A stretch of DNA of 64,000 nucleotides from a virus (lineage: Duplodnaviria > Caudoviricetes), in IMG/VR virus record IMGVR_UViG_3300049988_000375, positions 17,354 through 81,353 of that record; one strand, given 5' to 3'. Both the position numbers and the translations under genes were made by a program. Within the stretch, counting starts at the first letter, position 1; every line of letters begins with the position of its first letter. Under the pieces are notes generated by a model. It was not told the origin of the DNA. It made no database searches and worked only from the letters and a program-made list of their open reading frames with translations. This document shows positions 17,311 to 62,674 of the stretch, one piece after another.

Positions 17311-17341
17311 TAAGCCCCTGCTACACAGTAGGGGCTTATTT
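17311..17341 (+). terminator. Intrinsic terminator
   Basis: TAAGCCCCT/AGGGGCTTA stem followed by TTT. Confidence 0.65.
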
Positions 17342-17387
17342 GTGCGGGCTTTGTAACTTGCTATCACACCCTCCCCGCCCGCAAGCT

Positions 17388-19142
17388 ATGAATGGCCAGA
17401 TTGCCCCCAACGGCTTCAAAACCGTTGGCAACATCACCTACCTCTACGTGTACCTGCCCCTCGACGGGCGCAGCCTCGTAGCCCGCAAACAGCCTTATTC
17501 GGGCGGGATGCTAATTGACTACGCCACCATTAAAAACGAGGACTTTGACGCGGCACTGGCGGCGCCGGAAAAGCTCGAATACAAGCGCGGCACTGACCTC
17601 GACGCCAACCTAGGCGTACTGTTCAACCAACTCGGCACGGTGAACGCTGCCACGGGTGTTTCCAGTACCGTCACCGACCCGACCGACCGGCCGGGCCGAC
17701 TGCTCGGGCACGTCACGGTGGATAACTTCCCAACTAACTGGACGGGCGGCAGCGCCACGGCGGGCGCCACCGACGTATCAGCCCTCGCTAAAGATGCGAC
17801 GCTCACCGATGGCACGCAGAAGGCGCGGGTGACTAACTGGCCGGCTACCCAACAAGTGGGCGGGTCGGTAGCGGTCAGCAACTTCCCCGCGCCCGTAACG
17901 TCGGTGAGCGTGTCAAACTTGCCCACCACGCAGGCAGTTAGCGGCAGCCTGAGCATAAATAACTTCCCGGCGCCCGTAACCAGCGTGCAGGTGTCTAATT
18001 TGCCCGCTACGCAGCCCGTGAGTGGGCCGCTGACCGATGGACAGCTTCGCAGCGCGCCCGTGGCCGTAGCGGGCGATTTTTACCCCGACACGCAGCAGGT
18101 CAGCATCGCGGTAATGCCCACCACGCCGGTAACGGGCAACTTCTACCCGGCCGTGCAAGCGGTGTCTGGCCCGCTGACGGATAGCCAACTCCGCGCTGCA
18201 CCCGTGGCTGTCAATGGCACCGTGATTGTAGCGAACCCCACCAGCCCCACCGATGTATCGGCGCTGGCAAAGGACGCGACACTGACTAGCGGGGCGCAGA
18301 AAACACAGGTCACCAATACCGTGCCCGTCACTGGCCCCCTCACCGACACCCAGCTTCGGGCTACGGCCCTGCCAGTTGCCGGCGACTTCTACCCGGCTAC
18401 GCAGGCAGTGAGCATCGCCACGATGCCGACTACGCCCGTGGTGGGCACGTTCTGGCAGGCCACGCAGCCCGTTAGTGCCGCCAGCCTACCGTTGCCCGCT
18501 GGTGCAGCCACCGAAGCGACGCTGGCCGCCATAAAAGCCAAGACGGACAATATCGACGTGCTGCTTTCGACGCGCACCAAGCCAGCCGACACGCAGAAAG
18601 TGGATGGGAGCGGGGTAACGCAGCCAGTGAGCGCGGCGGCCTTGCCCTTGCCAGCCGGGGCATCTACGGCGGCCCTGCAAACAAGCATGGGGGCGCAACT
18701 GGCTGCGCTTGTCACAAACTCCCCGACTCTGGTGAGCGGGCGGCTGCCCGTGGACATTGGCGGGGCTACCGTCACGGCCAGCTTCGCGCCCAAGACCAGC
18801 GGCGGCGTGTCGGGCAAGCTCACCCTGGCTAATGGCGTGTCAGCTACCCCCACGGTGGTAAAGGCCACGGCCGGGCAAGTGTACCACCTGTTCGCGGGCA
18901 ACACGTCCAGCTCGGCCGTGTACGTGAACCTCTACGACAAAGCCACTGCCCCCGCAGCCGGCGACACGCCGAAGGAAATGTACCTAGTGCCCGCTGGCGG
19001 GACGCTCAGCCGTGACTTCGTGCTGGGCAGTCAGTTCACCAACGGCATTGGCCTCGCCATCACCTCGAACATCTCGCTGCTCGGCTCACTGACCGGCTTG
19101 CTAACGGCCAATGTGGTAATTGTGACCGTTCACTACGCCTAG
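17388..19142 (+). CDS. Repeat-rich putative fibre/decoration protein
   Basis: Likely start ATG 17388; many TQPVS, GPLTD.QLRA and TDVSALAKDATLT repeats; globular beta C-terminus. Confidence 0.6.
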   Translation: MNGQIAPNGFKTVGNITYLYVYLPLDGRSLVARKQPYSGGMLIDYATIKNEDFDAALAAPEKLEYKRGTDLDANLGVLFNQLGTVNAATGVSSTVTDPTDRPGRLLGHVTVDNFPTNWTGGSATAGATDVSALAKDATLTDGTQKARVTNWPATQQVGGSVAVSNFPAPVTSVSVSNLPTTQAVSGSLSINNFPAPVTSVQVSNLPATQPVSGPLTDGQLRSAPVAVAGDFYPDTQQVSIAVMPTTPVTGNFYPAVQAVSGPLTDSQLRAAPVAVNGTVIVANPTSPTDVSALAKDATLTSGAQKTQVTNTVPVTGPLTDTQLRATALPVAGDFYPATQAVSIATMPTTPVVGTFWQATQPVSAASLPLPAGAATEATLAAIKAKTDNIDVLLSTRTKPADTQKVDGSGVTQPVSAAALPLPAGASTAALQTSMGAQLAALVTNSPTLVSGRLPVDIGGATVTASFAPKTSGGVSGKLTLANGVSATPTVVKATAGQVYHLFAGNTSSSAVYVNLYDKATAPAAGDTPKEMYLVPAGGTLSRDFVLGSQFTNGIGLAITSNISLLGSLTGLLTANVVIVTVHYA

Positions 19143-19143
19143 A

Positions 19144-19184
19144 CCTTACCACTTCGGTAAGGTTAGTTTACCGAAGTGGTAAGG
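19144..19184. repeat. Inverted pair of replication-origin iterons
   Basis: CTTACCACTTCGGTAAG at 19145-19161 and a 16/17 inverted copy at 19167-19183; same unit as at 54970-55100. Confidence 0.9.
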
Positions 19185-19188
19185 TTTG

Positions 19189-19262
19189 CTGCGATTGTCC
19201 GAAAATAAAAGAGTGATTCGCTGCGATTGTCTTTATTATTTAAGAAATATGCAGTACATTTG
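19189..19262 (+). promoter_or_regulatory. Three-site promoter cassette, copy 3
   Basis: CTGCGATT 19189 and 19221, ATATGCAG 19247, TACATTTG 19255. Confidence 0.8.
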
Positions 19263-19268
19263 TAAAAG

Positions 19269-19394
19269 AACACGAGGGCATTCGTGTTGCAGAGACATAA
19301 CAAGTAGAACAAACCGGTCAGCCGGGATGGGCTCATCCCCCTGCTACTTGCCAGCCCCCGCAACGGAATGCCCTCCGTTCGGGGGCTTTTTGTT
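19269..19394 (+). ncRNA. Candidate small RNA / attenuator leader ending in an intrinsic terminator
   Basis: Hairpin AACACGA/TCGTGTT; stem CAAGTAG/CTACTTG with inner GGGATG/CATCCC; terminator AGCCCCC/GGGGGCT plus T run; complementary loops GGGCAT/ATGCCC. Confidence 0.55.
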
Positions 19395-19697
19395 GTACTG
19401 CGGTTCGCGCCATGAAACAACAACCGGCAATGAAAGCCCCATTTGGCCTGCTCATAGTCTTGTGAACCGTCTAGCGTGATGCCGAATCGGAGAGCATGGG
19501 GTAGGTGGAGGCAATGTGATGAGCTAGGGGACGCTTCACAAACTCCCTGTACACGGACAAGACGCACCGGCTCCGGAAGCATCTTCTTAGTGCAGCAGAA
19601 AAAACGCCTAACTCCGTAGCGGTAGCTAATGGGGGAAGGGGGCGCTTTTTCTGCTGTTCCGAACTTCAACAACACACTCTCCATAAGCAGTCTTGTT

Positions 19698-20024
19698 ATG
19701 ATAACGGTTTGCAACAAGCACTACCACACAAAAACAGCCGCAGACCAATACGTAGGACGAGGCAATGTGCTGGGCAACCCATTCACGCACAAAGCAGGCA
19801 CCCTAGCAAAGTTCATTTGCAAAGACCGCGACGAGGCTGTGAATAGCTACCGTACCTACCTGCTCGAAAAGCTGGCCGCCAAAGACCCCGAAATCTGCGC
19901 TGAAATGAATCGGCTCTACAAGCTGGCAAAAGCTGGCGATTTGAATTTAGTGTGCTACTGCGCGCCTCAGCGCTGCCACGCTGACATTCTAAAGGAAGTA
20001 CTCGAATCAAAAATTAATGGTTGA
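19698..20024 (+). CDS. DUF4326-like protein
   Basis: YVGRG..LGNPF and LVCYCAPQRCHADIL motifs; likely start ATG 19698. Confidence 0.8.
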   Translation: MITVCNKHYHTKTAADQYVGRGNVLGNPFTHKAGTLAKFICKDRDEAVNSYRTYLLEKLAAKDPEICAEMNRLYKLAKAGDLNLVCYCAPQRCHADILKEVLESKING

Positions 20025-20294: not shown

Positions 20295-20575
20295 TTATGC
20301 CACACGAAACCTATTGGGCGCCCTACCCAGCCCTAATGTCGCGACTAGGATTTGAGCGGCAGTCGAGGTGCGGCCGGCAGTGGGTGAAGAAAAATCCTGA
20401 CAACCCCGCTTCCCCCGATTTATTTATTGGGGAACTACCACGGCAGACCCTGCCGAACTTTCCTGCAAAGAAGGCCCCTACATTGTTTTTAGGGGCGAAT
20501 TGCAATCTGAGGAAGAACTTATTACTCTCTTACGACAAATCAGGTGGACATGAGCAAGCCAATCGTATACATTGA
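20291..20575 (+). CDS. Hypothetical protein
   Basis: 94-aa ORF filling the gap in the operon. Confidence 0.35.
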   Translation: MIMPHETYWAPYPALMSRLGFERQSRCGRQWVKKNPDNPASPDLFIGELPRQTLPNFPAKKAPTLFLGANCNLRKNLLLSYDKSGGHEQANRIH

Positions 20576-21347
20576 GCGCCACCCCGACGAACCGATGGGG
20601 GAGTGGGCACTTGCCGCGTGGCAAGGCTTTAAGTGGGATGGGTATGAAGTGCGCTTTGCCTTTCCCTTGCAAGAGGACTTGGCAAAGGGGAAAGGGGGCT
20701 GGAGTGGATATTACGACTACCCCACCGCTGAAATAATCCGCCTTATGCCCGACCGCCCATTTGTTGGGTCAGTCACTACTACTATGCGGCTTTTCCAGTA
20801 CTGGAATCGGCAGGTGCCCAAGCCCCTGAACGTGCCCGATGAGCTGCTGGCCTTCGCGGGTCGGCCGATTGAGCGCCTGCGGCTGGAAGATGCGCTGCTG
20901 CGAATGGAGGCCGACCACCGCCCGCAGTTCATCAAGCCCGCCGACGAGGCCAAGCTGTTCACGGGTGGGGTCGTGGCAACGCCCGCGCACGTCGCCTTTC
21001 TCTTTGCCGACCTGCACCCCGACACGCCCGTACTGCTCTCTCCCGAGATTAACCTGGTGACAGAATACCGGGTGTTCGTGAACCGTGACCGCGAGATTGC
21101 CGCCATGCGCCACTACTTGGGCGACCCCTTCGTGCGGCCGAGTAAGCTGTTCATTCGCAAGATGATTGACAGCTACACCGCCGCCCCGCGCTGCTATGCG
21201 CTCGACGTGGGTGTGACTGCCTCGGGCAAAACCGTTGTGGTCGAGTGCAACGACATGTGGGCCTTGGGGACATATGGAATGGACCCGGCAGCCTACTCTC
21301 GAATGCTGGCCCAGCGCTGGCACGAAATGATAACCAACCTTAAATAA
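20544..21347 (+). CDS. ATP-grasp enzyme, DUF4343 / R2K-like clade
   Basis: FVGSV, FIKPAD..KLFTG, EYRVFV, YALDVGV and VVECND motifs. Confidence 0.8.
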   Translation: MDMSKPIVYIERHPDEPMGEWALAAWQGFKWDGYEVRFAFPLQEDLAKGKGGWSGYYDYPTAEIIRLMPDRPFVGSVTTTMRLFQYWNRQVPKPLNVPDELLAFAGRPIERLRLEDALLRMEADHRPQFIKPADEAKLFTGGVVATPAHVAFLFADLHPDTPVLLSPEINLVTEYRVFVNRDREIAAMRHYLGDPFVRPSKLFIRKMIDSYTAAPRCYALDVGVTASGKTVVVECNDMWALGTYGMDPAAYSRMLAQRWHEMITNLK

Positions 21348-23531: not shown

Positions 23532-24623
23532 TTAGGCAGCCTCTCTTGGGTGCATAGTCTTGTAGAAGTAAGACAGTGACCGCCCCCCTGGCACTAACGA
23601 GGCTATATCATTTTCGTGTAACAGGGTCAGCTTATTGCCTAGCGCTCTGAATAATTTGTGCTTTTCTAATTGGTCTTGCTTTTGGTGCCCCTTTACTTCA
23701 ATCCACTCATTAGTTAGCGGCAGATAAAAGTCAGGGCAATACCGACACTTTGGGGTGAAACAAAACCACTTGGGCTCGAATTGGAATGGAGTGCCATTTT
23801 CAATAAGGTGCTGAGCATAGATGAACTCAAAGCCTGACCTGAATTTAAGTAGCCGACCTTTGTGCGTAATGTGCCAGCGCGTGCGGTCGTCATTTTTTAG
23901 GCGGTTACGCATCATTTCGGGCGTTCTAGCACTAGTTGCCTCTCGTGCCCAGCACCCACAACTGCGCATACCCTTTTCTTTTACCTTTTTAGATAAACGT
24001 AAAAAATGGTTGCCACAATCACACTCGCAATTTAGCCAAACGCCCCTCTCATCCTTGTGGGAAAATGACTTAACTGCCACGCGATAGAATTTCTGGCCTA
24101 TTAATTTTTGCCAAGTTTCTTTCCCCGCGTTTGCGCAGGCTCTAGAGCAGAAATATTTTCTATCTACAAGGCATGGCTTTGTATTATACAGTACGCCACA
24201 TTCTTTGCAATTAACTGCAATTCTAATAGCCGCAGCTTCTGATTGACATGATTTAGAGCAATACTTCATGCCATTCCTAGTGCGGCGCATATCGTTGCCG
24301 CACTGATAGCATTGCGTAGTGCTTTCCCTGCGGTGAAACTCTGAGAAGCAAGTGCGCGAGCAGAAGGTAGCAGCCTTTTGGTGGTACTCGCGGGTAAAGG
24401 CTTGATTGCACTGCTTACAAGTGCCCGAAGCCTTTATGCCCACCGCTCTTTTGGGTCGAGGGGGACGCTTGCTTTCTGGTGGGCGAGCTGCCGCAATCTT
24501 GGATGCATTGTGCAGGGCTGCGCATTTGCGACTGCAATAAATATTTTTGATAGCCTTGCGCTTGCTTTTTGCAAACTCCGCATGGCAATGCTGGCAGATG
24601 GCTGTGTTTTCACCGGCTTTCAT
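23532..24623 (-). CDS. Free-standing PD-(D/E)XK endonuclease with Cys-rich Zn-finger repeats (homing endonuclease-like)
   Basis: Multiple CxxC...CSxxC repeats; RSGFE...FEP...YCPDFYLP...WIEVKG catalytic motif. Confidence 0.8.
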   Translation of the reverse strand: MKAGENTAICQHCHAEFAKSKRKAIKNIYCSRKCAALHNASKIAAARPPESKRPPRPKRAVGIKASGTCKQCNQAFTREYHQKAATFCSRTCFSEFHRRESTTQCYQCGNDMRRTRNGMKYCSKSCQSEAAAIRIAVNCKECGVLYNTKPCLVDRKYFCSRACANAGKETWQKLIGQKFYRVAVKSFSHKDERGVWLNCECDCGNHFLRLSKKVKEKGMRSCGCWAREATSARTPEMMRNRLKNDDRTRWHITHKGRLLKFRSGFEFIYAQHLIENGTPFQFEPKWFCFTPKCRYCPDFYLPLTNEWIEVKGHQKQDQLEKHKLFRALGNKLTLLHENDIASLVPGGRSLSYFYKTMHPREAA

Positions 24624-24706
24624 GTATCAAAGGTATATACAAAAGGTGTATAAGGCAAATACAATGAGTGCTTTTTTAAATCACCTCGTCTACATATCTT
24701 TGGCCC

Positions 24707-24874
24707 ATGAAAAATCCTAAGCAGAATCGCGACTTGCAACTAAACATCAAGGCCACCAAGGCAGAGAAGGATATGCTAGAGGCAGTGGCTAAGGCACGAG
24801 GCTTAAGCAGTTCTATGTTGGTAAGGATGCTGGTAGCAGACGAGGCGCGGCGGTTGGGTATTCAGCCGACTTAG
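24707..24874 (+). CDS. Ribbon-helix-helix (CopG/Arc-like) protein (55 aa; not in the track)
   Basis: MKNPKQNRDLQLNIKATKAEKDMLEAVAKARGLSSSMLVRMLVADEARRLGIQPT; TATCTTTG at 24695 just upstream. Confidence 0.75.
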   Translation: MKNPKQNRDLQLNIKATKAEKDMLEAVAKARGLSSSMLVRMLVADEARRLGIQPT

Positions 24875-24916
24875 CCCGCTATAATTGCGTATCTTGCAGG
24901 AAACAATTAGCCATTC

Positions 24917-26695
24917 ATGCCCACCATTCCAGGCGAGAATCTTGTTACCAACGGCCCCAGAACCGGAGCCGCTTACGTGCTCGGGCGCACCACGCCGGAT
25001 GCGCTCTCCATTCTCATGCAGGGCCAGCGGCAGCGTGATTACGCCGCCCGTCAGCAGGCTATTGCCAAGCAGAAGGCCGACGAGCTGGCCGCCAAAGACC
25101 TGAACGACAAGCTAAAGTACGAGGTGGACGGCAGCCACATATTCGGGGATACCCTGCAAAATCAGGTGTATAATCCATTGAACGATAAACTGGTGGGCGC
25201 CTTCAAGGCCAACCCAACCGACGCGTTCGCCCGCACCGCCGCCACCCGCCCACTGCTCGAAGGGGCGCAGAGCGAAACCCAGCAGAGCAAGCGGAAAACA
25301 GCCTTCATTGATGAGAATATCCGCAAGTTCCAATCGGATAGCAAGCTCTACAACCCCAAGTACGCCACCGAGAGCCTGGTAAAGAGCCTGCGCGACGAGG
25401 CTACCGGCCTAAACCGCCTGCCCTCGCAGTTCGATGAGGAAGCGTGGCTGGGTGCGTTGCAGGGCGATGCGGGCCTCTACAACGAGCCGGAGGTGATTCG
25501 CCGGGCCACGTCGGGGCTGCTGCCCACGGTGTCGCAGAAAATCAGCGAGGCGGGCACTATCGGCGGGCAGCACAGCTCGGACCTGGTGCGCGGCAAGCTC
25601 ATTGCCATGCAGAACGGCAAGCCTATTCTCAACGCCGATGGCAGCCCGAAGCTCAACCTCGGCGCCGACCTGCAAGGGCTGCTCGAAGCCGACCCGCTGT
25701 TTAAACTCAAGGTCGATGCCCGCGAGGCGGCTTACAACGCCAAGCGCGAAGCCGACCCTACCCTGCCGCAGGTGAGCCGGCGCGGCCACATCGCGCAGAT
25801 GGTCGGCCCCCTCGCGTTTTACGACACCGCTCACGACGAGGGCTTGAACCGCCTGCCCCCGCAACCTAAAAGTGCCGGCAAGGAGAAAGGCTTTGTGCCC
25901 GACGATGGCTCACTGGTGGAGGGCGACTACTCGGCTACGCTGCCCGCCACCGCCCCCGCCTACGCGGGCCTGCGCGACGACAAGGGTACCCCGGTTGGCT
26001 ACGACTTCTCGCAGGCTGCCGGCCCCCAAAAGACGTTTCAGCATCTAGGCCAGGGCAAGCAGCCTATCCTGAAAACGGCCAGTGGCGACTTGAAAGAGAA
26101 GCACACTGACGCTATCAAAATCAACAGCTACTACACGGAGGATGGCAAGGGCAATTTCTCGGAGGTGACCAACAACGTCACCCCGCAGGCGGGCGTGTTC
26201 GGTCCCTCGACGGTGGTAGCGGTGGATGTGAAAACGAATAAACCACTGTTCAGTAAGTCGCGGGAGGAACAGAAGCAGCTTATTGCCAGCGGAGCCGCCC
26301 GCCCGCAGCTATTCATCGACCTGGCCGCCGACAAGAACGAGAAGTTCGCCGCCGACAAGTCGCGGGTGCTGCGTGAACTGACCCAGGCCAATAACGACCC
26401 CGGCAACTTCAATAAGAAATCGCCGGCCGAATTGGAGGACCAGGCGACCAAGATTGTGAGCAAGGGTGTCACCCGCCACTTCATCCCCTACAACGCGCAG
26501 AACGCGCAGGCTATCGACCCCGTGACGGGCGGCCACTACCGCGCTGCCCTGAAAACGATGCTGCGCAGCTTCAAGCAGGGTGCCGCGCCCGCCCCCAAGG
26601 CGAAGGCCAACCCCCTCGGCTTCGGCGCGCCCGCCGCCAGCAAACCCTCGACCGCCCCCGCCGCTAAACCCAAAGCCAACCCACTTGGATTCTAA
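24917..26695 (+). CDS. Putative ejection/internal virion protein (592 aa)
   Basis: Helical N-half, position before the giant virion protein. Confidence 0.6.
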   Translation: MPTIPGENLVTNGPRTGAAYVLGRTTPDALSILMQGQRQRDYAARQQAIAKQKADELAAKDLNDKLKYEVDGSHIFGDTLQNQVYNPLNDKLVGAFKANPTDAFARTAATRPLLEGAQSETQQSKRKTAFIDENIRKFQSDSKLYNPKYATESLVKSLRDEATGLNRLPSQFDEEAWLGALQGDAGLYNEPEVIRRATSGLLPTVSQKISEAGTIGGQHSSDLVRGKLIAMQNGKPILNADGSPKLNLGADLQGLLEADPLFKLKVDAREAAYNAKREADPTLPQVSRRGHIAQMVGPLAFYDTAHDEGLNRLPPQPKSAGKEKGFVPDDGSLVEGDYSATLPATAPAYAGLRDDKGTPVGYDFSQAAGPQKTFQHLGQGKQPILKTASGDLKEKHTDAIKINSYYTEDGKGNFSEVTNNVTPQAGVFGPSTVVAVDVKTNKPLFSKSREEQKQLIASGAARPQLFIDLAADKNEKFAADKSRVLRELTQANNDPGNFNKKSPAELEDQATKIVSKGVTRHFIPYNAQNAQAIDPVTGGHYRAALKTMLRSFKQGAAPAPKAKANPLGFGAPAASKPSTAPAAKPKANPLGF

Positions 26696-29600
26696 CGCCC
26701 AGCCCACAGAAGAACTCGCCCCCGAGCAAACGGCGCCCACCCCGCCCACTTCACGCCTGCAAACGGCCTACGGGCTGCTGAAAAAGCAGGACGTGAAGGT
26801 GCCCGATTCCTACGAGGAATTTGAGCGCGGCATGGTGGATAAGCCCGAGCGGCTAAAGGCGCTCTACGACCACTTCAAAAAAAGCGACATTCAGGTGCCC
26901 GACGACTACGGCCAGTTCGAGGCCGGTATGCTGGAAGGGGTCAAAAAAAAAGCCCATTCCGCGCCTGGTGGGCTGCCTTCTGCGGCTACTGCGCCGACTT
27001 CTTCACCGGCCGTAAGTGGGCAGGGGACTAACCCTGCCCAAATGCAGGCGGCCCTGGGTATTGACCCGGCCGACGTAGCGCAGCCTGCACCCGAGCCCAC
27101 CCCCGACGTAGCAATGGCGGCCGAGGCGGCCGGGCTCGAATCCGCGCAGCCCTTTGCCCCCGGCTCCGCTGCCGCCCCGCTGGCGCAGAACCTGCCGAAC
27201 CTTGCCACGGGCGAGGCCGCCGTGCAGGGCGGGCGCTTGCCGGCCACCGAAGAAATGGACTACCTCAACGGCCTGCCGGCCGCGGAGGATAAGGGCGTGC
27301 GCCCCGATGGCAGCGAGTACACTCCCACGCCCTACGGCAAGGAGCTGGTGGCGATTCCCAACGACTACACCGGGGCCGTGCCAGCGGGCGCGTTCCCGCT
27401 GAACCTCTCGGGCGAAGGCGACCGCACGCAGTACTTCTACCGCGACAAGGCAAAGACCGTCGATGGCAAAGAGCAATCCTACGGCGACGCGCTGAAAGGC
27501 AAACTCAAGAACGCGCTCTACAGCATGGGGCAGGGTGTGGTGGAAGGCACGCAGGCTGCCGTCAACACGGTTGGTATGGCGAGCACCGCCGCGAGCGGGC
27601 TGCCTTTGGCTGCTGCCCCGCGCACCGAACTCGGCACCGAGGCCAGCGCCGCCATTGAGCGCAACAAAACCAAGATTGCGCCCTACTACAACCAGTCGTT
27701 TCGCCAACACAAGAATTGGGAGACGCTGGGCATGACCGCCGCCGACTACGCCCCGATGGTGATTGCCCAAGTAGCGCAGACGCTCGCCCCCGAACTGCGC
27801 GCCCCGGCCGCACTGCAAAAGGCGCTGGCCTTCGCCTCGACCACGGCCTTCGACGCCGACATGTACCACGCGGCCCGTGAGCACGCCAAGCAGGTGTTCC
27901 CCAACGACCCGGCCAAGGCCGACCTCTACACGCTCTTTGAGGGCACGCTGACCGTGGCGGGCTTCAAGGTGGGCAGCAAACTTATGACGGAGGTAGGCGA
28001 CAAGCTGGCCTACAAACTCTCGCCGTTTTCGCTCAAGCGCGCCGTGGCAACCGGGGCCGCCGAACGCCTGAGCCAGCTAGAAGCGCAGCTAGGCCGCCGT
28101 GCTACCGATGCCGAGTACCAGCAGGTGCTGCACGAGAGCTTGCGCGCCGCCCTGCCCAAGCTCGCGCAGCTTCCCAAGGAGTCTTTCCAGCAAGCGGGCA
28201 CCTTCGGCGGGGTGGCAGCGGCCCAAACTATCGGCAACCAGATAGTCGCCCCCGCGCTCGGCGGGCAAGCCGACGACCTCGGTCCCGATGGCATGGGCTT
28301 CTTCTCGAAAGTAGGCGAGGGGATGCTGGCGGGCGCCGGCATGGGTGCGCTGACGGGCGCCGTAGGGGCGGTGCTGCCCGCGGGCACCCGTCCCGCGCCA
28401 GCTCAGGAGCCGATAGCAGGCGAGCCCGAGTTGGCGCCGACGCCAGAAGCCCCGGCTGAGCTGACACCCAGCCAAGAGGTGCCGACTGCTGAGGTGGCGC
28501 CGCCCACGGCGCCTGACCCTTCGGTGGTGGATGTGACCGACCAGGTACCCGAGCCCATTCAGGCCGTAGCGCCCGAAGAAGCCTTGCCAATCACGGAGCC
28601 CGTGGCGAGTGAACAAGTGCCCGAGTCGGCTTTGGCTGAACCCGAGGGTGGGCAGGGCAATACCGTGGAAGCTGGTCCCGAGTTGGGGCAGAAGGAACGA
28701 CAGCACCCGTTGCGCTACGATGAGCAAACCCAGGCTGGCTTGCGGCCCGAGGAACGTTACTATACCCCGCGAGCCCGCATTCAAAACGCGGAAGAAGCCA
28801 ACGCCTTCATTGACGAGCACGGGCTAGAAAATGCCTATAAATTCGTGATGGCGGGCGAACGTGACACCGCCGCTGGCGAGCCAATTCACGCGGCCGTGCT
28901 AGACGAGGTGCGCGGGCAAACCCGTCAGCGCCTGCTTGACGCATCCTTGGCCGCTGATAAAGTAGGCGATACGGCCGAGTCCACCCGGCTACTTCAACAG
29001 TCGCTTGACGTGTTGGGCAAGCGCGCTATTGCCCGCACCGAAACTGCGCAAGCACTGGCCCAGGTCGAGGGCGACATTACAAAGAACCCTGACAAGGCGC
29101 TAGACGACTATGCGGCTAGCATCCCTGCCACCAAGGAGAAGGTGCGGAAGCAAAACAGACAGAAAGCCCAAGCAGCAGATAAGGAGGCCACCACTAAGCG
29201 CAAGGCTAAGGTGGATGCCGCGCTTGCCGACGCCGACGTGCAGGACGCCGCCGAGCGGGTGACCGAATGGGCAGTAACAGGCCAGAAACCTGCCAAGAAG
29301 GGCGGCGCGAAGCCCGCCGAATCCACCCCTGCTGACCCGCCGACGTGGGGCAGCAAAAACAAGCTCTTTACCAAGGAGTCGGCGGCCAAAGCCAAGGCCG
29401 CCCTCAAGAATCTGGGCCTTTCCACTATTATCCCCCCCGAGCTAATCCACTTCATGGGCTACCACATGGAGGCGGGGGCCCGCTCGTTTGCCGATGTAAG
29501 CAAGCGCGTAGTGCGCGATTTGGGCGCGAAGGTGAAGCCCCTGCTAAAGGAGGCCTACGAGGCGGCAAAAAAGGAGTTGGTTGCTAAGGGTGACTCGGGC

Positions 29601-32600
29601 AAAGGCTTTGACGGGCCGGACGCGGTGGAGGCCGCACTTCGGGCGAGCCTAGCCGACGACTTGGCTGGCCGCATTGTGTCAGAGGTGAAGCCTAAAGTGC
29701 CAGGTGTATTCGACCCAGCACAGGAGCTATTGGAGACGCTGACCAAGAAAGTACGGGAAACCCTGCCACCCAATAAGCCAAAGCCTAAAGATGCGCGGGA
29801 GGCTATTGTTCATGCTTTGCAAAACAAGGCTGAGTATGCCGACGTGTTCGAGCAGAGCAAGGCCGAAGTAGAGGCGCGCATTGAAAAGATGAGCGCGACG
29901 GACGCGGAAAAGGCTAAGATGCGCGAGCAGCTACGCGCCTATCAGGCTGACACAATTGGTGACCCCTTCGCAGCGCGCCAAGTGGATGCCACCATGCGCC
30001 AGGCCATGAAAGAATTGGGTCTTAAGCTGGAAAAGCTCGTGCGTCAACACGCTGATGTGCGCGAGGCAGGCCGCCGCTCGTTAGTGGATGCGCTGGTAGA
30101 GGGTGCCGGGCTAACCCCAGCGCAGGCGGCTGAGTATGCCGAGGCCGTGAGCAATCGCTACGCTGTCCAAACCCAAGCCAAGGCACAGTCGCTAGCCGGC
30201 CGGATTCTCGCTCCCGCCAAAGCCAAGCTGCCGGGCGGCAAGATTCGCTCGGTAGTTGATAAGCTCACCGAGGCGCTGGATATTTCCGACGCCACCCATA
30301 CTGGCCCCGACTCCGACACGGTTAGCCCAGCCGGCGCGCTGCTGGAAAAGATGGCCGGCATTCCCGAGGTGACGGTGGAGGATGTGAAGGCTTTCCGCAA
30401 ACTAGCCGAGCGGGTGCGCAAGGCTAGTCAGCCCAAAGGGGTTACCATCAAAGGCAAGCAGGTGCAGGTAATCGACACCAAAGCCCAACAGGCGGCCGTA
30501 GCCGACCTGCTGCGCTATGGGGCGGCCAAGATGGGTAAGGTGAACTGGTGGGCTAAAACTCGCGCCATGCAGTATGCTTTCCGCCTGTCGGGCCTCGACA
30601 CCCAAGGGCGCAACCTCAAGGCGAACGTACTGCACACCGTTGCCGAGCAAGGGCTGATTACACCCCTCTACAACGCCATCAAAAATCGCAGTGTTTATGG
30701 TGCGTCGGGTGGCGCTACTGGCTATGCAAAAGGGCAGGGCCAAGGTGTGGCTGAGGCTGCCTATACTATAAAAACCGGCTACACGGGCGAAAAGCAGGAC
30801 AAGTTTGGCGACAACTCGCCGCTAGAAACGATGGGCGGCTTTTGGGGCAAGTGGAAGTACGTGAGCCGGGCTATGATTGCCGGCGACCAACTCACCAGTA
30901 TCCCCACTGAAAACTCGCGCACGTTTGAGGTGGCAGTGCAGAAGGGTTTTGAGCTAGCCCGAGAGAAAGCCGCCGCTAGTGGACAAAAGCTCAAGGGACG
31001 TGCGCTACGCGACGCCGCATGGGCCGAGGCTAACGAAATCCTTTATAATACCAAGGAGGCACTGGCTGACATTGACTACATCTTGGAGCAGGAGGGCTTG
31101 CCCGAAATTACCGCCGCCCAAGTTCGAGCCGGGCAACATACAGTAGGCGAGTACAACCAGCGTGCGGTGCAGCGCAACGTGCGCAAGGCTGACCTGCTGC
31201 GCCAAGCACGGGCAGCCGAAAACCCCGACCTAGTAAAAGACGCTCAAGATTATGCTCGCATTCAGACGCTGAACGGCGACGTGCCCGGCCAGATAGGGCG
31301 GGTGCTGGATGCGGCAGCTTCAATTGGCAGAGATAATCCAGTAGCTGATGCGGTGTTGACCAACGTGATGCCGTTTCTAAAAATACCGGCCAACTCGTTG
31401 CTGCGCAAGCTGGAATGGGGTGGCGGGCCGGTGACGTTGCTAAAGGCTGCCTTGGGCCGCACCTCCCTTACGATGGCAGTAAAAGAGGGCAGCAAGTATT
31501 CGCGGGAGCTTACGCCCGACGAGCGCGGCAAACTGGCCCTGCGCGGAGCGCTTAGCACGGTGGCGTGGGCGGGGCTATATGGCTTGATTCACAACGGCAC
31601 CATTTCTATTTCTGGCCCAGCCTCTGGCAAGAATGACGAGGACTTGTTGCAGCCGCCTATGACCATAAAGATTGGCGACAGCGTGTACGGCTATAAGGAT
31701 ACCAACATCGAATATCCACTGGTGATTGCCGCCGCCCTGCAAGCGCATCTGCGTAAAAAAACCAAGCAGGGCGGCGACCCCAGCCTAGCCCAGCTTGCTA
31801 GTGTGGCTGCCCTGCACTCGGCCGCCTATATGGTTACTACAGGCCCCATTAACGGCCCAGCCGACATGGGCAACGTACTGATTCAGGCCAACCAAGGCAA
31901 CTACGCCTCGGCAGGGAATTATTTTAAACGCTTCTTGGTGACGAGTGCAAAAACTGGCACGCTGCCTGCTGTATTGATTCAGGGGATGCAGGCGGCCCGC
32001 GATTATACAGCCACCTATAAGGAGTGGGCCAGTGCTGGGCAGCAAAGCACTGATTGGCAGGGTGCGGCTGTGCGGGAGCGCAAGTCTAACTCGCTGGCCG
32101 ACGAGCTAAAGGTGTCGTTTTTCGGTAGTATCCCATACTTCGACATTGGCGAAGATAAAATCAACTTCGCCGGACAACCCATCGTGATAAATCGCAGTGG
32201 TGAAACTATTTGGCAGGATGAGCAAACAAAGCGGCTCGCACAAACACTGGTTGCCCTCGGCCTTATGCCGCCCCGCCAAGCCCCCACTGACGATAAGCTG
32301 GTCTTGTTTGACCCGGTGAGCGGTGACCGCGTAACGCCTCTATCTGATGCCGAGTTTAAGCAGTACGCGGTGTTGCGTGGGCAGGCGTTCGTTGAGTATC
32401 TGACGCGCCAGCCAGAGGGCGAGGGGGGCAAGACGCTCCTGTCGCAAATCAAGGAAGCCCCAACCCGCGCCATCGCAGAGCGGCTCCGCGATAAGGCTCT
32501 CGATGCGGCCACTACCAATGCCTTGCGCACAATTGAGCAGCAGCGCGGGGGCGGGGTGACCTTCAAGTTGTCTAAGCAATTGAAGCAGGCGAGCGATGCG

Positions 32601-32654
32601 GCAGGCTTTCAGCAAGCGAAGCAGCAATTGGATGAAAAGCTCGCCACGGAATAG
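26685..32654 (+). CDS. Giant putative ejection/internal virion protein (~1990 aa; frame open from 26580)
   Basis: Very large, helical, low-complexity linkers; plausible TTG start at 26685 overlapping the upstream stop. Confidence 0.65.
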   Translation: MDSNAQPTEELAPEQTAPTPPTSRLQTAYGLLKKQDVKVPDSYEEFERGMVDKPERLKALYDHFKKSDIQVPDDYGQFEAGMLEGVKKKAHSAPGGLPSAATAPTSSPAVSGQGTNPAQMQAALGIDPADVAQPAPEPTPDVAMAAEAAGLESAQPFAPGSAAAPLAQNLPNLATGEAAVQGGRLPATEEMDYLNGLPAAEDKGVRPDGSEYTPTPYGKELVAIPNDYTGAVPAGAFPLNLSGEGDRTQYFYRDKAKTVDGKEQSYGDALKGKLKNALYSMGQGVVEGTQAAVNTVGMASTAASGLPLAAAPRTELGTEASAAIERNKTKIAPYYNQSFRQHKNWETLGMTAADYAPMVIAQVAQTLAPELRAPAALQKALAFASTTAFDADMYHAAREHAKQVFPNDPAKADLYTLFEGTLTVAGFKVGSKLMTEVGDKLAYKLSPFSLKRAVATGAAERLSQLEAQLGRRATDAEYQQVLHESLRAALPKLAQLPKESFQQAGTFGGVAAAQTIGNQIVAPALGGQADDLGPDGMGFFSKVGEGMLAGAGMGALTGAVGAVLPAGTRPAPAQEPIAGEPELAPTPEAPAELTPSQEVPTAEVAPPTAPDPSVVDVTDQVPEPIQAVAPEEALPITEPVASEQVPESALAEPEGGQGNTVEAGPELGQKERQHPLRYDEQTQAGLRPEERYYTPRARIQNAEEANAFIDEHGLENAYKFVMAGERDTAAGEPIHAAVLDEVRGQTRQRLLDASLAADKVGDTAESTRLLQQSLDVLGKRAIARTETAQALAQVEGDITKNPDKALDDYAASIPATKEKVRKQNRQKAQAADKEATTKRKAKVDAALADADVQDAAERVTEWAVTGQKPAKKGGAKPAESTPADPPTWGSKNKLFTKESAAKAKAALKNLGLSTIIPPELIHFMGYHMEAGARSFADVSKRVVRDLGAKVKPLLKEAYEAAKKELVAKGDSGKGFDGPDAVEAALRASLADDLAGRIVSEVKPKVPGVFDPAQELLETLTKKVRETLPPNKPKPKDAREAIVHALQNKAEYADVFEQSKAEVEARIEKMSATDAEKAKMREQLRAYQADTIGDPFAARQVDATMRQAMKELGLKLEKLVRQHADVREAGRRSLVDALVEGAGLTPAQAAEYAEAVSNRYAVQTQAKAQSLAGRILAPAKAKLPGGKIRSVVDKLTEALDISDATHTGPDSDTVSPAGALLEKMAGIPEVTVEDVKAFRKLAERVRKASQPKGVTIKGKQVQVIDTKAQQAAVADLLRYGAAKMGKVNWWAKTRAMQYAFRLSGLDTQGRNLKANVLHTVAEQGLITPLYNAIKNRSVYGASGGATGYAKGQGQGVAEAAYTIKTGYTGEKQDKFGDNSPLETMGGFWGKWKYVSRAMIAGDQLTSIPTENSRTFEVAVQKGFELAREKAAASGQKLKGRALRDAAWAEANEILYNTKEALADIDYILEQEGLPEITAAQVRAGQHTVGEYNQRAVQRNVRKADLLRQARAAENPDLVKDAQDYARIQTLNGDVPGQIGRVLDAAASIGRDNPVADAVLTNVMPFLKIPANSLLRKLEWGGGPVTLLKAALGRTSLTMAVKEGSKYSRELTPDERGKLALRGALSTVAWAGLYGLIHNGTISISGPASGKNDEDLLQPPMTIKIGDSVYGYKDTNIEYPLVIAAALQAHLRKKTKQGGDPSLAQLASVAALHSAAYMVTTGPINGPADMGNVLIQANQGNYASAGNYFKRFLVTSAKTGTLPAVLIQGMQAARDYTATYKEWASAGQQSTDWQGAAVRERKSNSLADELKVSFFGSIPYFDIGEDKINFAGQPIVINRSGETIWQDEQTKRLAQTLVALGLMPPRQAPTDDKLVLFDPVSGDRVTPLSDAEFKQYAVLRGQAFVEYLTRQPEGEGGKTLLSQIKEAPTRAIAERLRDKALDAATTNALRTIEQQRGGGVTFKLSKQLKQASDAAGFQQAKQQLDEKLATE

Positions 32655-32665
32655 AGCAGGGCAAA

Positions 32666-33454
32666 TTAAACCTTGCGAGCGCGAGGTGGCACAAACGCCA
32701 CCTCGCCCTTCACTCGTTGATGTGCGCTATAAAATTTGGCGAGTGTCGTGCCCTTGGGCAAAAGCAACATTATCTGCGGTTGTGAAAGGACGGTTAGTTT
32801 GTGGCCCAACTCACGGAATAACTTGATTTTCTCAGCCGACCTATCCGATAAATGCCCCTTTACCTCAACCCACTCGTCGGTTTCGGGCAAATAAAAGTCG
32901 GGCGTATATCGCAGGGATGGGGTGAGGCAAAACAACTTAGGCTCATACATGAACGCTATGCCTGATGCCTGCAAATGCTCAAGATAGATTAACTCAAAGC
33001 CAGAGCGAAGCTGCACGGGCTGGTCGCCAATGGTCACGCGCCAACGCGACTGGCTAGCCCCTTTTGAGTTACGCCCACAGGTTAATGCCCCCGTACGGCT
33101 TGATGTTTCATTTTTCCAGCACCCGCACGATTTGGTATTGCCACTGCGAACGTCTCTAGGCAACGCCATTATCTCGCCGCCACATTCACAGCGAAACTTG
33201 CGCATGGTCCCGCTCGCCATATTGTCGATGCACACTAGTCGATTGGCAGCTAAGCCGGTAAAATCTTCGCGCTTCAAGGCCCTAATCGCATTGCCATGCT
33301 CACAGCCGCAACTCTTTTGGCGGCCATTGGGCAGCTTATTCCTCGCTATCAGCTTCTCGTTGCCGCAGGTGCAGCGGCAAAGACACTTGGGCCGAGTGTC
33401 GCCAATAACAGTAAGTCGCCCAAAGGTCATGCCTAGCAGATTGATTCGTTCCAT
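32666..33454 (-). CDS. Second free-standing PD-(D/E)XK endonuclease (homing endonuclease-like)
   Basis: GMTFGRLTV..CRCTCG repeats; RSGFE...YEP...YTPDFYLP...WVEVKG; clear paralogue of 23532-24623. Confidence 0.8.
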   Translation of the reverse strand: MERINLLGMTFGRLTVIGDTRPKCLCRCTCGNEKLIARNKLPNGRQKSCGCEHGNAIRALKREDFTGLAANRLVCIDNMASGTMRKFRCECGGEIMALPRDVRSGNTKSCGCWKNETSSRTGALTCGRNSKGASQSRWRVTIGDQPVQLRSGFELIYLEHLQASGIAFMYEPKLFCLTPSLRYTPDFYLPETDEWVEVKGHLSDRSAEKIKLFRELGHKLTVLSQPQIMLLLPKGTTLAKFYSAHQRVKGEVAFVPPRARKV

Positions 33455-47973: not shown

Positions 47974-48054
47974 TGAAAGGTTGGTACATGGGCAAGTCCC
48001 GGTGACTGTAACTCACCCGCTTCGGCTTTGCAGGTTCGACTCCTGCCCTTTCAA
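47974..48054 (+). tRNA. tRNA-Tyr (GTA), long variable arm, CCA not encoded
   Basis: Acceptor TGAAAGG/CCTTTCA; anticodon arm GGTGA-CTGTAAC-TCACC; T arm GCAGG-TTCGACT-CCTGC. Confidence 0.9.
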
Positions 48055-48083
48055 CAATCTCACTCAATCGGAGTGATACGATT

Positions 48084-48156
48084 GTGTTAGTAGCTCAACT
48101 GGTGGAGCGCCCGACTGTGTATCGGATGGCTGTGGGTTCGAGCCCCATCTAACACC
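48084..48156 (+). tRNA. tRNA-His (GTG), CCA not encoded
   Basis: Acceptor GTGTTAG/CTAACAC, C73; anticodon loop CTGTGTA; T arm GTGGG-TTCGAGC-CCCAT. Confidence 0.88.
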
Positions 48157-48166
48157 CTTTTATTAT

Positions 48167-48238
48167 GGATTGGTAACATAGAGGTCTATGTGTCGCTCTG
48201 AAAAAGCGGAAATGTTGGTTCGATACCAGCCCATTCCA
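48167..48238 (+). tRNA. tRNA-Phe (GAA), CCA not encoded
   Basis: Acceptor GGATTGG/CCATTCC (one T:T mismatch); anticodon arm TCGCT-CTGAAAA-AGCGG; T arm GTTGG-TTCGATA-CCAGC. Confidence 0.85.
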
Positions 48239-48241
48239 CTT

Positions 48242-53113: not shown

Positions 53114-53419
53114 TTACTCGCCAGATATGTCGCAGGCACAGTAAACAACTCGGGCTTCCCATTCGATGTTGAATTTCTGCGGCTCCTCTTCACTGCACAG
53201 CTCACAGACAAAAACAACCCTATTAGTTGGCCCATCGCCCATCTTGTCGTCCCATTTCTCGCAGGCTTTTTTAGCAGCCTCCTCGCTGTCAATATCATAG
53301 ACAGTTATGGCATCCTCGCGGTCCTCGTGGTCCTCCCACACCTCAAACGCGGTGCCGCAGTAGTGCTGCGAGCCATAATATCTCTCATCGCAAATCGGGC
53401 ATTCATTAAAAAAGCTCAT
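53114..53419 (-). CDS. Acidic Cys-containing hypothetical protein
   Basis: CPIC...HYC; 101 aa. Confidence 0.55.
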   Translation of the reverse strand: MSFFNECPICDERYYGSQHYCGTAFEVWEDHEDREDAITVYDIDSEEAAKKACEKWDDKMGDGPTNRVVFVCELCSEEEPQKFNIEWEARVVYCACDISGE

Positions 53420-53762: not shown

Positions 53763-54416
53763 CTAGTAGAGGTTCGCGGCGTGCTTGGCTACGTAAGCGG
53801 GGTAGACTTGCTGGAATTGGCCGAGTAGGTCGTGGATGCTGCCACGCTGGTAGCCATTCGTCCAGCCACGTTCTCCGTTCTCGTGCTTGTAACCAATCAA
53901 CTCGCGCAGTTCAGTTTTCACCAGCGACTCGTTGAAGGGGGAGTCAGCCGGGTATTTTGTTAGCTCATCAACAAGTTTGATTCCGAGGCCCAAAAGGTCA
54001 GCCCATGCGAACAACTCGGGGAACTTGTCGCGGAAGGCCGAGGGCTGCCTGGGCGCCTGACCAACCACCCACTGGTAGATGCGGGTGTAGTTCAGGGGCA
54101 GCGACTTATACTTGTCGAGCAGCCCCTTGTAGCCCTGCTTGATAATGCTGTTGAGTTCGGCTAGGGTGAGGTTGGGGAAGTCCTCGGCAATGTCTTTGGC
54201 GAGTTGCTGCCAACCTTCTTCTGCGATAAGGTCGAAGCCATTGGTGCGGCACAGGCTGGCTTTTTGCAGGACAACAAGCACGGTGGCTGTCCCTTCGCTA
54301 GTCGAGGCCCAAAGCGCGACAGGCTGCAAAGGCGTTGGCAACTTGGTCGGCAGGGATGAGTCCGAGGGCTGTGGCGCGGTTGGCTGGGCTTGGAGTGAGT
54401 TGCTGGCTGGTTCCAT
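53763..54416 (-). CDS. Putative helicase loader / replication accessory protein
   Basis: Directly downstream of the initiator gene (position-based inference). Confidence 0.45.
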   Translation of the reverse strand: MEPASNSLQAQPTAPQPSDSSLPTKLPTPLQPVALWASTSEGTATVLVVLQKASLCRTNGFDLIAEEGWQQLAKDIAEDFPNLTLAELNSIIKQGYKGLLDKYKSLPLNYTRIYQWVVGQAPRQPSAFRDKFPELFAWADLLGLGIKLVDELTKYPADSPFNESLVKTELRELIGYKHENGERGWTNGYQRGSIHDLLGQFQQVYPAYVAKHAANLY

Positions 54417-55443
54417 GATGGATTAGTTGGGGGAGGATGTTGGTGAGGTTGCTGGCGATTTGGATAAGTTTCTGCTGGCGTTGCAGGAAGGCTTCGAGGC
54501 GGTTCCAGTTTTGCAGCAGGGCCGTGAACAGGGCCACGGTGGTTTCGTCGGTGCCGGCGCCGGGCTGGGCGAACAGCGTTTGGTAGATGGCGCGGGCCGC
54601 CTTGTTGTCGGCGGCCCCGCCCGCTGGTGGCTCGGCCTGGTTGTGCTGGCGATACCAAGTGCGGTAGACTTCCAGCATCAGCGCCCCTTTGCCAGCCAGC
54701 GGGTCGGCCTCGGTTCTGGCGGCCCGTCTTTTCGGCGCGGGCGGCGCGGCGGGCAGCAACGATGTTTGGGCTCGTAGGCTTTCAAGTTGTTGTTCCTGCG
54801 CTTTGAAAACCTCTACCGACTTCTCAATTCTTTTTTTGAGCCGCAAATTCTCAGCTTCCAGCTCGGCTATTTTTTTTTGAGAAGCGGCGTCAGCCGCCAA
54901 GGCTTTTTGTTCGAGTTCGGCAATTTTACTAAGTAGGGTTTCTTCCTTCTTTACTTCTATTAACTTATGCTTACCACTTCGGTAAGGTATCCTTACCACT
55001 TCGGTAAGGCTATCCTTACCACTTTCAGGCACAACCTTACCACTTTTAGCGCCTAACCTTACCACTTCGGTAAGGTCTGCAACCTTACCACTTCGGTAAG
55101 AACTCCGCAACTCAGGGGTCGGCGTGAGGGTGCGTCGCTGCCCGGCCACGCGGGGGGTGAGCAGCAAATAGCCGCGCTCTACCAGGGCGCTGATATGGCG
55201 GCTCACCATCGGCTCGGTCATGCCCAAGCGCTTCGCCAGGTGCCCGTTGTTGGCATCGAAGCACCCGCGCCCGCCGCACTCATAGAGTTGGCAAATGTCA
55301 GCCAGCACGCTTCGCATGGCGGGGTGCATCCCCTTAGCAGCCATAATCAGGTGCCCTACGCTTGTGGGCGCTTTATCAGCCACCATGTAGGATGCGGCGG
55401 GGTCTTCGGTCACAGAGGGCAGGAAGTGGTGAACGGCGGTCAT
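54298..55443 (-). CDS. Phage replication initiator (N-terminal winged HTH)
   Basis: ANNGHLAKRLGMTEPMVSRHISALVERGYL HTH; internal iteron array. Confidence 0.8.
   Translation of the reverse strand: MTAVHHFLPSVTEDPAASYMVADKAPTSVGHLIMAAKGMHPAMRSVLADICQLYECGGRGCFDANNGHLAKRLGMTEPMVSRHISALVERGYLLLTPRVAGQRRTLTPTPELRSSYRSGKVADLTEVVRLGAKSGKVVPESGKDSLTEVVRIPYRSGKHKLIEVKKEETLLSKIAELEQKALAADAASQKKIAELEAENLRLKKRIEKSVEVFKAQEQQLESLRAQTSLLPAAPPAPKRRAARTEADPLAGKGALMLEVYRTWYRQHNQAEPPAGGAADNKAARAIYQTLFAQPGAGTDETTVALFTALLQNWNRLEAFLQRQQKLIQIASNLTNILPQLIHHGTSQQLTPSPANRATALGLIPADQVANAFAACRALGLD
54970..55100. repeat. Replication origin iterons inside the initiator gene
   Basis: CTTACCACTTCGGTAAG at 54970, 54992, 55058 and 55084; degenerate copies at 55015 and 55036; 21-26 bp period; AT-rich flank near 54920-54969. 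Confidence 0.9.
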
Positions 55444-62672: not shown

Positions 62673-62674
62673 CC

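What the first reader, a model, noticed from the sequence alone, without database searches (positions are those of the whole stretch)
19144..19184. Remote inverted pair of replication-origin iterons 35 kb from the origin, abutting a lytic promoter
The 17-bp unit CTTACCACTTCGGTAAG that forms the array inside the initiator gene (54970-55100) reappears here twice, inverted, at the same 22-bp period and 4 bp from cassette 3. Known: lambdoid iterons normally lie only in the initiator gene; separate iteron clusters (P1 incA, F incC) titrate or handcuff Rep in plasmid-like replicons. Inference: the initiator doubles as a transcription regulator of the accessory operon, or this is a copy-control/looping site or second origin. 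The 17-bp stem could additionally terminate the upstream fibre transcript.
Basis: partly seen in the sequence, partly recalled or inferred. Interest (0 to 1): 0.8.

Follow-up and report, generated by a model that had tools for sequence, protein, structure and literature searches.

The report
Second initiator docking site in phage
Two exact copies of this temperate phage's replication-origin repeat lie back to back 35.8 kb from the origin; a distant relative has the same layout with its own repeat word, so this is most likely a second docking site for the replication initiator, a layout already known from Bacillus phage SPP1.

Summary
The 17-mer CTTACCACTTCGGTAAG occurs at 19145-19161 (+, exact) and 19167-19183 (-, 1 mismatch). 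Its only other occurrences in the 81-kb provirus record are in the six-unit array inside the 381-aa initiator gene (chance expectation 0.09). The pair fills the gap between the stop of a 600-aa fibre-like gene and promoter cassette 3, and folds into a 22-bp hairpin (-38 kcal/mol) with no U-tract.

The one reachable relative is a 118-kb provirus with a syntenic virion module and an initiator 33% identical. It has a different iteron word (TTACCGAAAC). That word occurs only in its initiator gene (7 copies) and in one intergenic cluster 58.7 kb away (4 direct units and 1 inverted unit, then an AT-rich stretch).

The layout matches SPP1 oriL/oriR, where initiator bound at oriR is proposed to stall forks. 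The initiator here is an unrelated winged-helix protein. The phage integrates (CI-like repressor, integrase), so plasmid-style copy control is unlikely.

My best reading is an accessory initiator-binding site that acts in replication and doubles as an mRNA-end hairpin. Earlier notes of this scan list at least six other phages with SPP1-like second iteron sites. I class it as a new variant of a known kind, of moderate interest.

The parts
19145..19161 (+). Remote iteron unit 1, exact copy of the origin 17-mer. With flanks, 19143-19163 equals origin unit 55056-55076 over 21 bp.
   Evidence: (family D4)
19167..19183 (-). Remote iteron unit 2, inverted, 1 mismatch at the outermost base; 15-nt core exact
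19140..19188 (+). Hairpin formed by the two units (22 pairs including G-U, 5-nt loop, -37.9 kcal/mol, z -8.1). It is followed by UUUGCUGCG, so there is no canonical U-tract.
17340..19142 (+). Upstream 600-aa repeat-containing virion (fibre-like) gene; its TAG stop lies 2 nt before the pair
   Evidence: 418 relatives of the repeat domain in viral contigs; no Pfam or PHROG hit
19186..19265 (+). Promoter/operator cassette 3 (boxes CTGCGATTGTC at 19189 and 19221, then an inverted TGCAGTA box); AT-rich (GC 0.30-0.38)
   Evidence: (family D1)
19269..19395 (+). Leader with an intrinsic terminator (stem 19370-19386 plus T-run) ahead of the accessory genes (DUF4326 at 19629-20024, R2K ATP-grasp at 20544-21347)
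54970..55100 (+). Primary origin array: 6 iterons at a ~22-bp period inside the initiator gene. Read in two frames they encode YRSGK / LTEVVR repeats.
54900..54969 (.). AT-rich stretch next to the primary array (GC 0.30-0.40), a candidate unwinding element
54298..55443 (-). 381-aa initiator: winged helix (about residues 29-117), iteron-encoded low-confidence linker (137-161), long coiled coil (163-229), helical C-terminal domain

Best explanation
The 40-bp element is a second, non-coding docking site for the phage's own winged-helix replication initiator. It holds two full dyad-symmetric iterons at the origin's 22-bp spacing, in the gap between a virion gene and the next promoter. It belongs to the same kind of layout as SPP1 oriL (inside gene 38) and oriR (in the late region beside moron genes). 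Initiator dimers made early in lytic growth would occupy it along with the six-unit origin. With only two units and no unwinding element of its own, it most likely acts as an accessory cis element of replication: a tightly bound barrier to forks, or a partner that pairs or loops with the origin. It is less likely to fire as an independent origin. Because the units are inverted, the same DNA also gives the upstream late mRNA a very stable 3' hairpin, which may be why it occupies the slot where other operon junctions carry a terminator. Shown here: the sequence identity, its uniqueness in the genome, and recurrence with a different iteron word in a relative. Inferred: binding by the initiator, and any effect on forks, looping or transcription.
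For: 1. The motif occurs only at the origin and at this site.
2. The units are dyad-symmetric (CTTACC-N5-GGTAAG) and the initiator model has one winged helix followed by a long coiled coil, which fits dimer binding.
3. G001 is a true relative: a syntenic virion module at 27-35% aa identity and an initiator at 33%. Its iteron core TTACCGAAAC occurs 11 times in 118 kb: 7 in the initiator gene and 4 in one intergenic cluster, plus one inverted 1-mismatch unit. There are none elsewhere, and the reversed control pattern gives 0.
4. In G001 the remote units keep the 10-nt core exactly, while the base before it is mostly C instead of the G of the gene array. Nothing beyond the units is shared with the initiator gene. 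This argues for selection on the binding core rather than a recent copy or a gene fragment.
5. Both remote clusters start 2-9 nt after a stop codon at an operon junction, but at non-syntenic places. That fits a position-tolerant replication element better than a regulator of one operon.
6. The SPP1 precedent: gp38 binds repeats in oriL and oriR; oriR lies in the late region with three morons; bound gp38 is proposed to stall forks and trigger the theta-to-sigma switch.
7. The phage encodes an Erf recombinase.
Against: Co-variation rests on a single relative, because closer relatives could not be fetched. No binding data exist. Two units are fewer than in any origin array here, and the neighbouring AT-rich DNA is already explained as a promoter cassette. 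The orientation of the inverted units differs between the two phages (divergent here, convergent in G001), so 'inverted pair' may not be a shared functional feature. Because each unit is itself nearly palindromic, inversion matters little for dimer binding and mainly creates the long hairpin. That leaves room for a purely RNA-level role. The initiator shows no detectable homology to SPP1 gp38.
Confidence: 0.5

Rival explanations
1. Initiator-dependent transcription control. Initiator bound 4 bp upstream of box 1 of cassette 3 blocks read-through from the late virion operon, or it modulates the cassette's regulator. Either way, expression of the downstream leader and accessory operon would be coupled to the replication phase.
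For: The pair abuts box 1. Both phages place the cluster just upstream of an operator-bearing promoter region. In iteron plasmids, Rep dimers bound to inverted iteron-like repeats repress transcription (general knowledge).
Against: In G001 about 90-130 bp, containing an AT-rich stretch and a separate intrinsic terminator, separate the cluster from the next promoter boxes. The downstream operons are not homologous and the positions are not syntenic. None of the other six cassettes, including the one driving the initiator operon, has an iteron nearby.
Confidence: 0.2
2. An RNA-level element only. The inverted pair is kept because it forms a very stable 3' hairpin that ends or stabilises the late virion transcript. 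Its identity to the iteron reflects its origin by copying from the origin array, not a need for initiator binding.
For: The hairpin is -37.9 kcal/mol with z -8.1. It ends 3-4 nt before the cassette, the same slot as the canonical terminator ahead of cassette 2, and a terminator also precedes cassette 6. No other terminator lies between the 600-aa gene and cassette 3.
Against: There is no U-tract: only UUU, which pairs into the stem. The terminator scan did not call it. This reading does not explain why the arms are exact iterons with consensus flanks at the origin spacing. In G001 the remote cluster is mainly four direct units that form no comparable hairpin (z -2.4), and a separate real terminator follows it.
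Confidence: 0.15
3. A neutral relic or by-product: a short palindromic duplication of origin DNA left by illegitimate recombination, with no selected function.
For: The element is only 40 bp. Palindromic duplications can arise by template switching. Mosaic junctions next to moron or accessory blocks are common in phages.
Against: A distant relative independently has a remote cluster that matches its own different iteron word, with the core conserved and the flanks diverged. Both remote units here keep the 15-nt core intact.
Confidence: 0.1

Closest known systems
Bacillus phage SPP1 oriL / oriR with origin-binding protein gp38 (G38P)
   Same: One set of initiator-binding repeats lies inside the initiator gene. 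A second set lies in non-coding DNA far away in the late virion region, between transcription signals and beside moron genes. The initiator binds both, and bound initiator at the second site is proposed to stall forks and trigger the switch to concatemer synthesis (PMC6316719, PMC3485210). I confirmed in the SPP1 record that boxes shared with gene 38 lie between a terminator and gene 8.
   Different: SPP1 oriR repeats the full box set in direct orientation together with its own AT-rich unwinding element. Here there are only two units, inverted, forming a perfect hairpin, and the AT-rich neighbour is a promoter cassette. The initiator is a winged-helix plus coiled-coil protein with no detectable similarity to DnaD-like gp38. 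The host is a Bacteroidota member (probably Hymenobacter), and the phage is temperate and integrating.
Phage lambda O protein and ori-lambda
   Same: An N-terminal DNA-binding domain; dyad-symmetric 17-19-bp iterons at a ~20-24-bp period inside the initiator's own reading frame; an adjacent AT-rich stretch. There is a weak PHROG match to 'replication initiation O-like' (E 7.8e-6).
   Different: The lambda record annotates iterons only inside O, and no remote set is known to me. Profile comparison with lambda O found no similarity.
Satellite phage P4 ori / crr, and R6K gamma enhancer with alpha and beta origins
   Same: Initiator-binding repeats lie at two separated loci that cooperate in cis, by looping through the initiator. 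In R6K a single remote iteron or half-iteron is enough. This is from my own knowledge and was not checked in a paper here.
   Different: The distances are a few kb rather than 36 kb, the initiator families differ, and a requirement in cis is untested here.
Plasmid copy-control iteron clusters and Rep operators (P1 incA, F incC; inverted iteron-like repeats at rep promoters; handcuffing)
   Same: Extra initiator sites outside the origin, and inverted repeats that share the iteron sequence and are bound by Rep dimers. Handcuffing is reviewed in PMC5397158 (abstract).
   Different: Those elements lie beside the rep gene or origin of stably maintained plasmids and limit copy number. This element is an integrating prophage with a CI-like repressor and an integrase. 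The pair is 35.8 kb from rep, and no iteron lies near the rep-operon promoter.

Membership tests
Lambda O-type initiator/origin (iterons inside the initiator gene) | N-terminal (winged) helix-turn-helix DNA-binding domain | tested here: met
   Pfam HTH_24/HTH_36/MarR-type hits below the curated cut-offs at residues 50-96. The AlphaFold model has pLDDT >90 over about residues 30-130, and Foldseek's top hits are MarR/ArsR winged helices (E 5e-3 and weaker).
Lambda O-type initiator/origin (iterons inside the initiator gene) | Four or more dyad-symmetric iterons at a ~20-24-bp period within the initiator ORF, next to an AT-rich stretch | tested here: met
   Six units at 54970-55100, lying in residues about 114-158. 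The AT-rich stretch 54900-54969 has GC 0.30-0.40.
Lambda O-type initiator/origin (iterons inside the initiator gene) | Sequence homology to lambda O | tested here: inconclusive
   phrog_678 'O-like' E 7.8e-6 and phrog_2880 E 3.6e-6, but hhalign against lambda O gave probability 0.05 (single-sequence template).
SPP1 oriL/oriR two-site layout | One repeat set inside the initiator gene and a second set in non-coding DNA elsewhere in the genome | tested here: met
   for this phage; for relative G001.
SPP1 oriL/oriR two-site layout | The second site repeats the whole origin module (all boxes plus its own AT-rich unwinding element) | tested here: inconclusive
   Only 2 of 6 units are present, and nothing else is shared with the origin. 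The adjacent AT-rich DNA is a promoter cassette. In G001 the remote cluster does have 5 units and an AT-rich flank.
SPP1 oriL/oriR two-site layout | The initiator binds both sites | not testable with these tools
   Needs EMSA, footprinting or ChIP. Co-variation in G001 is indirect support only.
SPP1 oriL/oriR two-site layout | Initiator homologous to gp38 (DnaD-like) | tested here: not met
   hhalign of the Rep family alignment A3 against SPP1 gp38 gave probability 0.04. The resemblance is in layout, not in protein family.
Plasmid copy-control iteron cluster (P1 incA / F incC type) | Belongs to a stably maintained plasmid-type replicon, with the cluster adjacent to rep/ori | tested here: not met
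   Integrase and CI-like repressor at 61719-64000; IMG/VR classes the record as a provirus; the pair is 35.8 kb from rep; no match to the initiator in PLSDB plasmids.
Rep autorepression operator (inverted iteron-like repeats at the rep promoter) | The inverted repeats overlap the promoter of the rep gene | tested here: not met
   No iteron or half-site lies near cassette 7 (56761, -), which heads the clamp-rep operon.
Intrinsic (Rho-independent) terminator | A stable hairpin directly followed by a U-tract (at least 5 U in 8) | tested here: not met
   The hairpin is -37.9 kcal/mol, but the tail is UUUGCUGCG and the scan did not call it. The scan did call the leader terminator at 19370-19386.

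The most novel reading that the evidence does not exclude
In this lineage of Bacteroidota temperate phages, a minimal palindromic pair of iterons is a programmed checkpoint bound by the initiator. It stalls forks coming from the origin, and perhaps extrudes as a cruciform, to switch replication into the recombination-driven concatemer mode. At the same time it insulates or gates the neighbouring promoter, so replication and late or accessory transcription are coupled through one 40-bp element.
Probability: 0.12. Interest if true: 0.65.

Novelty: new variant of a known kind. Interest (0 to 1): 0.42.

Why it matters
SPP1's second origin has long looked like a peculiarity of one Bacillus phage. 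Here the same two-site logic appears with an unrelated winged-helix initiator in temperate crAss-like-module phages of Bacteroidota, and it recurs in a relative with a different iteron word. Together with earlier notes of this scan, this suggests that remote initiator sites are a general and under-appreciated feature of phage replication. The two-unit, hairpin-forming version is small enough to mutate cleanly. That makes it a convenient system to test whether such sites act as fork barriers, as looping partners or as transcription insulators.

Tried and rejected
Searches for close relatives found nothing:
- megablast of both loci against INPHARED phages
- the exact cassette word and the exact 17-mer in IMG/VR. 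The four single 17-mer hits are chance-level, and their contexts are unrelated.
- the initiator, the 1171-aa protein and an MCP alignment against viral contigs and genome contigs
- tblastn of the initiator against phages and plasmids
- the metagenome scan, which gave only two short MCP contigs that do not reach the site

Other dead ends:
- The genome search cannot draw relatives for a virus record.
- The 600-aa protein's repeat domain is too widespread to define relatives.
- Rfam and tRNA scans found nothing at the site.

Readings I rejected:
- an assembly artefact
- a fragment of a rep gene: no homology beyond the units
- a plasmid-type incA/incC element: the phage integrates
- a canonical terminator: there is no U-tract

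Full report
OBSERVATION. ACCTTACCACTTCGGTAAGGT-TAG-TTTACCGAAGTGGTAAGGT occupies 19143-19185. The 17-mer CTTACCACTTCGGTAAG matches at 19145-19161 (+, exact) and 19167-19183 (-, one mismatch at the outermost base). It also matches four times exactly in the array at 54970-55100. That is six matches at up to 3 mismatches against 0.09 expected, and 0 of 100 shuffles reach six. Two further half-conserved units (55015, 55036) bring the array to six units spaced 22/23/21/22/26 bp. The window is bases 17354-81353 of an 81,353-bp IMG/VR provirus record, and the whole record holds no other copy. Both remote units also fit the flank consensus of the origin units..acCTTACC.

CONTEXT.
- The array lies in the 381-aa ORF 54298-55443 (-). 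This ORF has weak PHROG matches to replication initiators, including 'O-like' (E about 1e-5 to 1e-6), and sub-threshold winged-helix Pfam hits at residues 50-96.
- An AlphaFold model built on 30 family members (mean pLDDT 79) shows a confident winged helix, a low-confidence linker exactly where the iterons are encoded, a 65-residue coiled coil and a helical C-terminal domain. Foldseek finds only generic MarR/ArsR winged helices.
- The iterons are read in two frames, as YRSGK and LTEVVR repeats, and these peptides recur in family members.
- An AT-rich stretch (GC 0.30-0.40) flanks the array. The primary origin therefore has the lambda-ori style of architecture (compare).
- The operon also encodes a sliding clamp, a primase/helicase-like protein and, further on, Erf.
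- A CI-like repressor and an integrase sit at the right end, so this is an integrating temperate phage. MCP relatives point to Hymenobacter as the host.

THE REMOTE SITE. The site starts 2 nt after the TAG of a 600-aa repeat-containing virion gene and ends 4 bp before box 1 of promoter cassette 3. That cassette is one of seven similar three-box cassettes. As RNA, the pair folds into a 22-pair hairpin of -37.9 kcal/mol, z -8.1. Cassette 2 is preceded, in the same slot, by a canonical terminator, and cassette 6 is also preceded by one. The iteron hairpin, however, is followed by UUUGCUGCG and was not called by the terminator scan, which did call the leader terminator at 19370-19386. Each unit is itself a near-palindrome (CTTACC-N5-GGTAAG). 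A dimeric binder should therefore be almost indifferent to unit orientation, and what inversion adds is mainly the long hairpin.

COMPARATIVE TEST. Close relatives exist: MCP homologues at 64-81% identity on contigs up to 60 kb. All other routes found none.

One distant relative was reachable: IMG/VR provirus G001, 117,958 bp.
- It shares a syntenic virion module (terL, portal, MCP, ring proteins, the 1171-aa and 2024-aa proteins) at 27-35% identity, Erf at 55%, and an initiator at 33% over the N-terminal domain.
- Its initiator gene carries about 8 units of AAAAGTTACCGAAACTC at a 21-bp period.
- The 10-mer core TTACCGAAAC occurs 11 times in the 118 kb: 7 in that gene and 4 in one intergenic cluster 58.7 kb away (period 21/22/33). 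The cluster also has one inverted 1-mismatch unit. The core occurs nowhere else, and the reversed control pattern gives 0.
- The remote units keep the core exactly, but most have C rather than G before it. Nothing else is shared with the initiator gene. They are therefore neither recent copies nor a gene fragment.
- The cluster begins 9 nt after a stop codon. An AT-rich stretch (GC 0.20-0.30), a separate intrinsic terminator, operator-like boxes and the next operon follow it. That operon leads to terL 5 kb further on.
- This position is not syntenic with the site in our phage.

So two phages with different iteron words each keep a remote cluster of their own word at an operon junction.

WHAT IS KNOWN. 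Bacillus phage SPP1 has oriL inside gene 38 and oriR in a long intergenic region of the late module, 'bracketed between transcriptional signals' together with three moron genes. gp38 binds the repeats of both. gp38 bound firmly to oriR is proposed to stall the fork and trigger the theta-to-sigma switch, which is processed by a Holliday-junction resolvase, an exonuclease, a recombinase and SSB (PMC6316719, PMC3485210). In the SPP1 record I confirmed that boxes shared with gene 38 lie between the terminator after gene 7 and gene 8. The layout here is the same, but the initiator is unrelated. Only two units are present, and they are inverted. Earlier notes of this scan list at least six other phages with SPP1-like second iteron sites. 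I did not check those notes, but they mean the scan has found this layout before on other DNA.

INTERPRETATION. I put about 0.8 on the pair being a selected binding site for the initiator. Among possible functions I favour a replication-accessory role: a barrier, or a pairing or looping partner (0.5 as stated). My reasons are these.
- The site is position-tolerant between relatives.
- The relative's cluster looks origin-like.
- The SPP1 precedent exists.
- No link to a particular operon is conserved.

The rivals are direct transcription control of cassette 3 (0.2), a purely RNA-level hairpin (0.15) and a neutral relic (0.1). Plasmid-style copy control is unlikely for an integrating phage. An independent second origin is doubtful with only two units and no unwinding element of its own.

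VERDICT. The finding is a new variant of a known kind (SPP1 oriL/oriR-type dual initiator sites) and is of moderate interest.

Noticed in passing
window 23532-24623 (-) and 32666-33454 (-): Two paralogous minus-strand genes lie inside the plus-strand virion module. They carry HNH and endonuclease-I/Holliday-junction-resolvase-like domains and share a 92-nt repeat (23686-23777 / 32853-32944). They look like free-standing homing endonucleases.
   Followed up: partly
window 54970-55100 (Rep residues about 114-158): The iteron is translated in two frames, giving YRSGK and LTEVVR peptide repeats. Family members keep these or show YRNGK/LTETV, so each relative's iteron word can be read from its protein sequence.
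   Followed up: partly
G001 53045-53214 versus 111720-111995 (L095 7720-7995): In the relative, the array inside the initiator gene has no AT-rich flank, while the remote 5-unit cluster does (GC 0.20-0.30). There the remote cluster may be the working origin.
   Followed up: partly
L095 7730-7790 and 11412-11469: G001 has its own repeated operator-like boxes (TCGAGACAAAAT / TCAAGACAGAAT) at operon heads. They are analogous to this phage's CTGCGATTGTC cassettes but have a different word.
   Followed up: no
window 24624-32654: The 592-aa and 2024-aa virion genes have no promoter cassette of their own. They would have to be transcribed from cassette 3 through the accessory genes, or by read-through of the iteron hairpin.
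   Followed up: no
window 17340-19142: The 600-aa gene upstream of the pair contains internal repeats (DFYPxTQ-type, D7/D9). Relatives of its repeat domain are very widespread in IMG/VR (418 loci), yet it has no Pfam or PHROG match.
   Followed up: no
window 61719-64000: A CI-like repressor (HTH plus S24 peptidase) and a tyrosine integrase lie at the right end of the record. A tRNA-Tyr/His/Phe cluster lies at 47974-48239.
   Followed up: no
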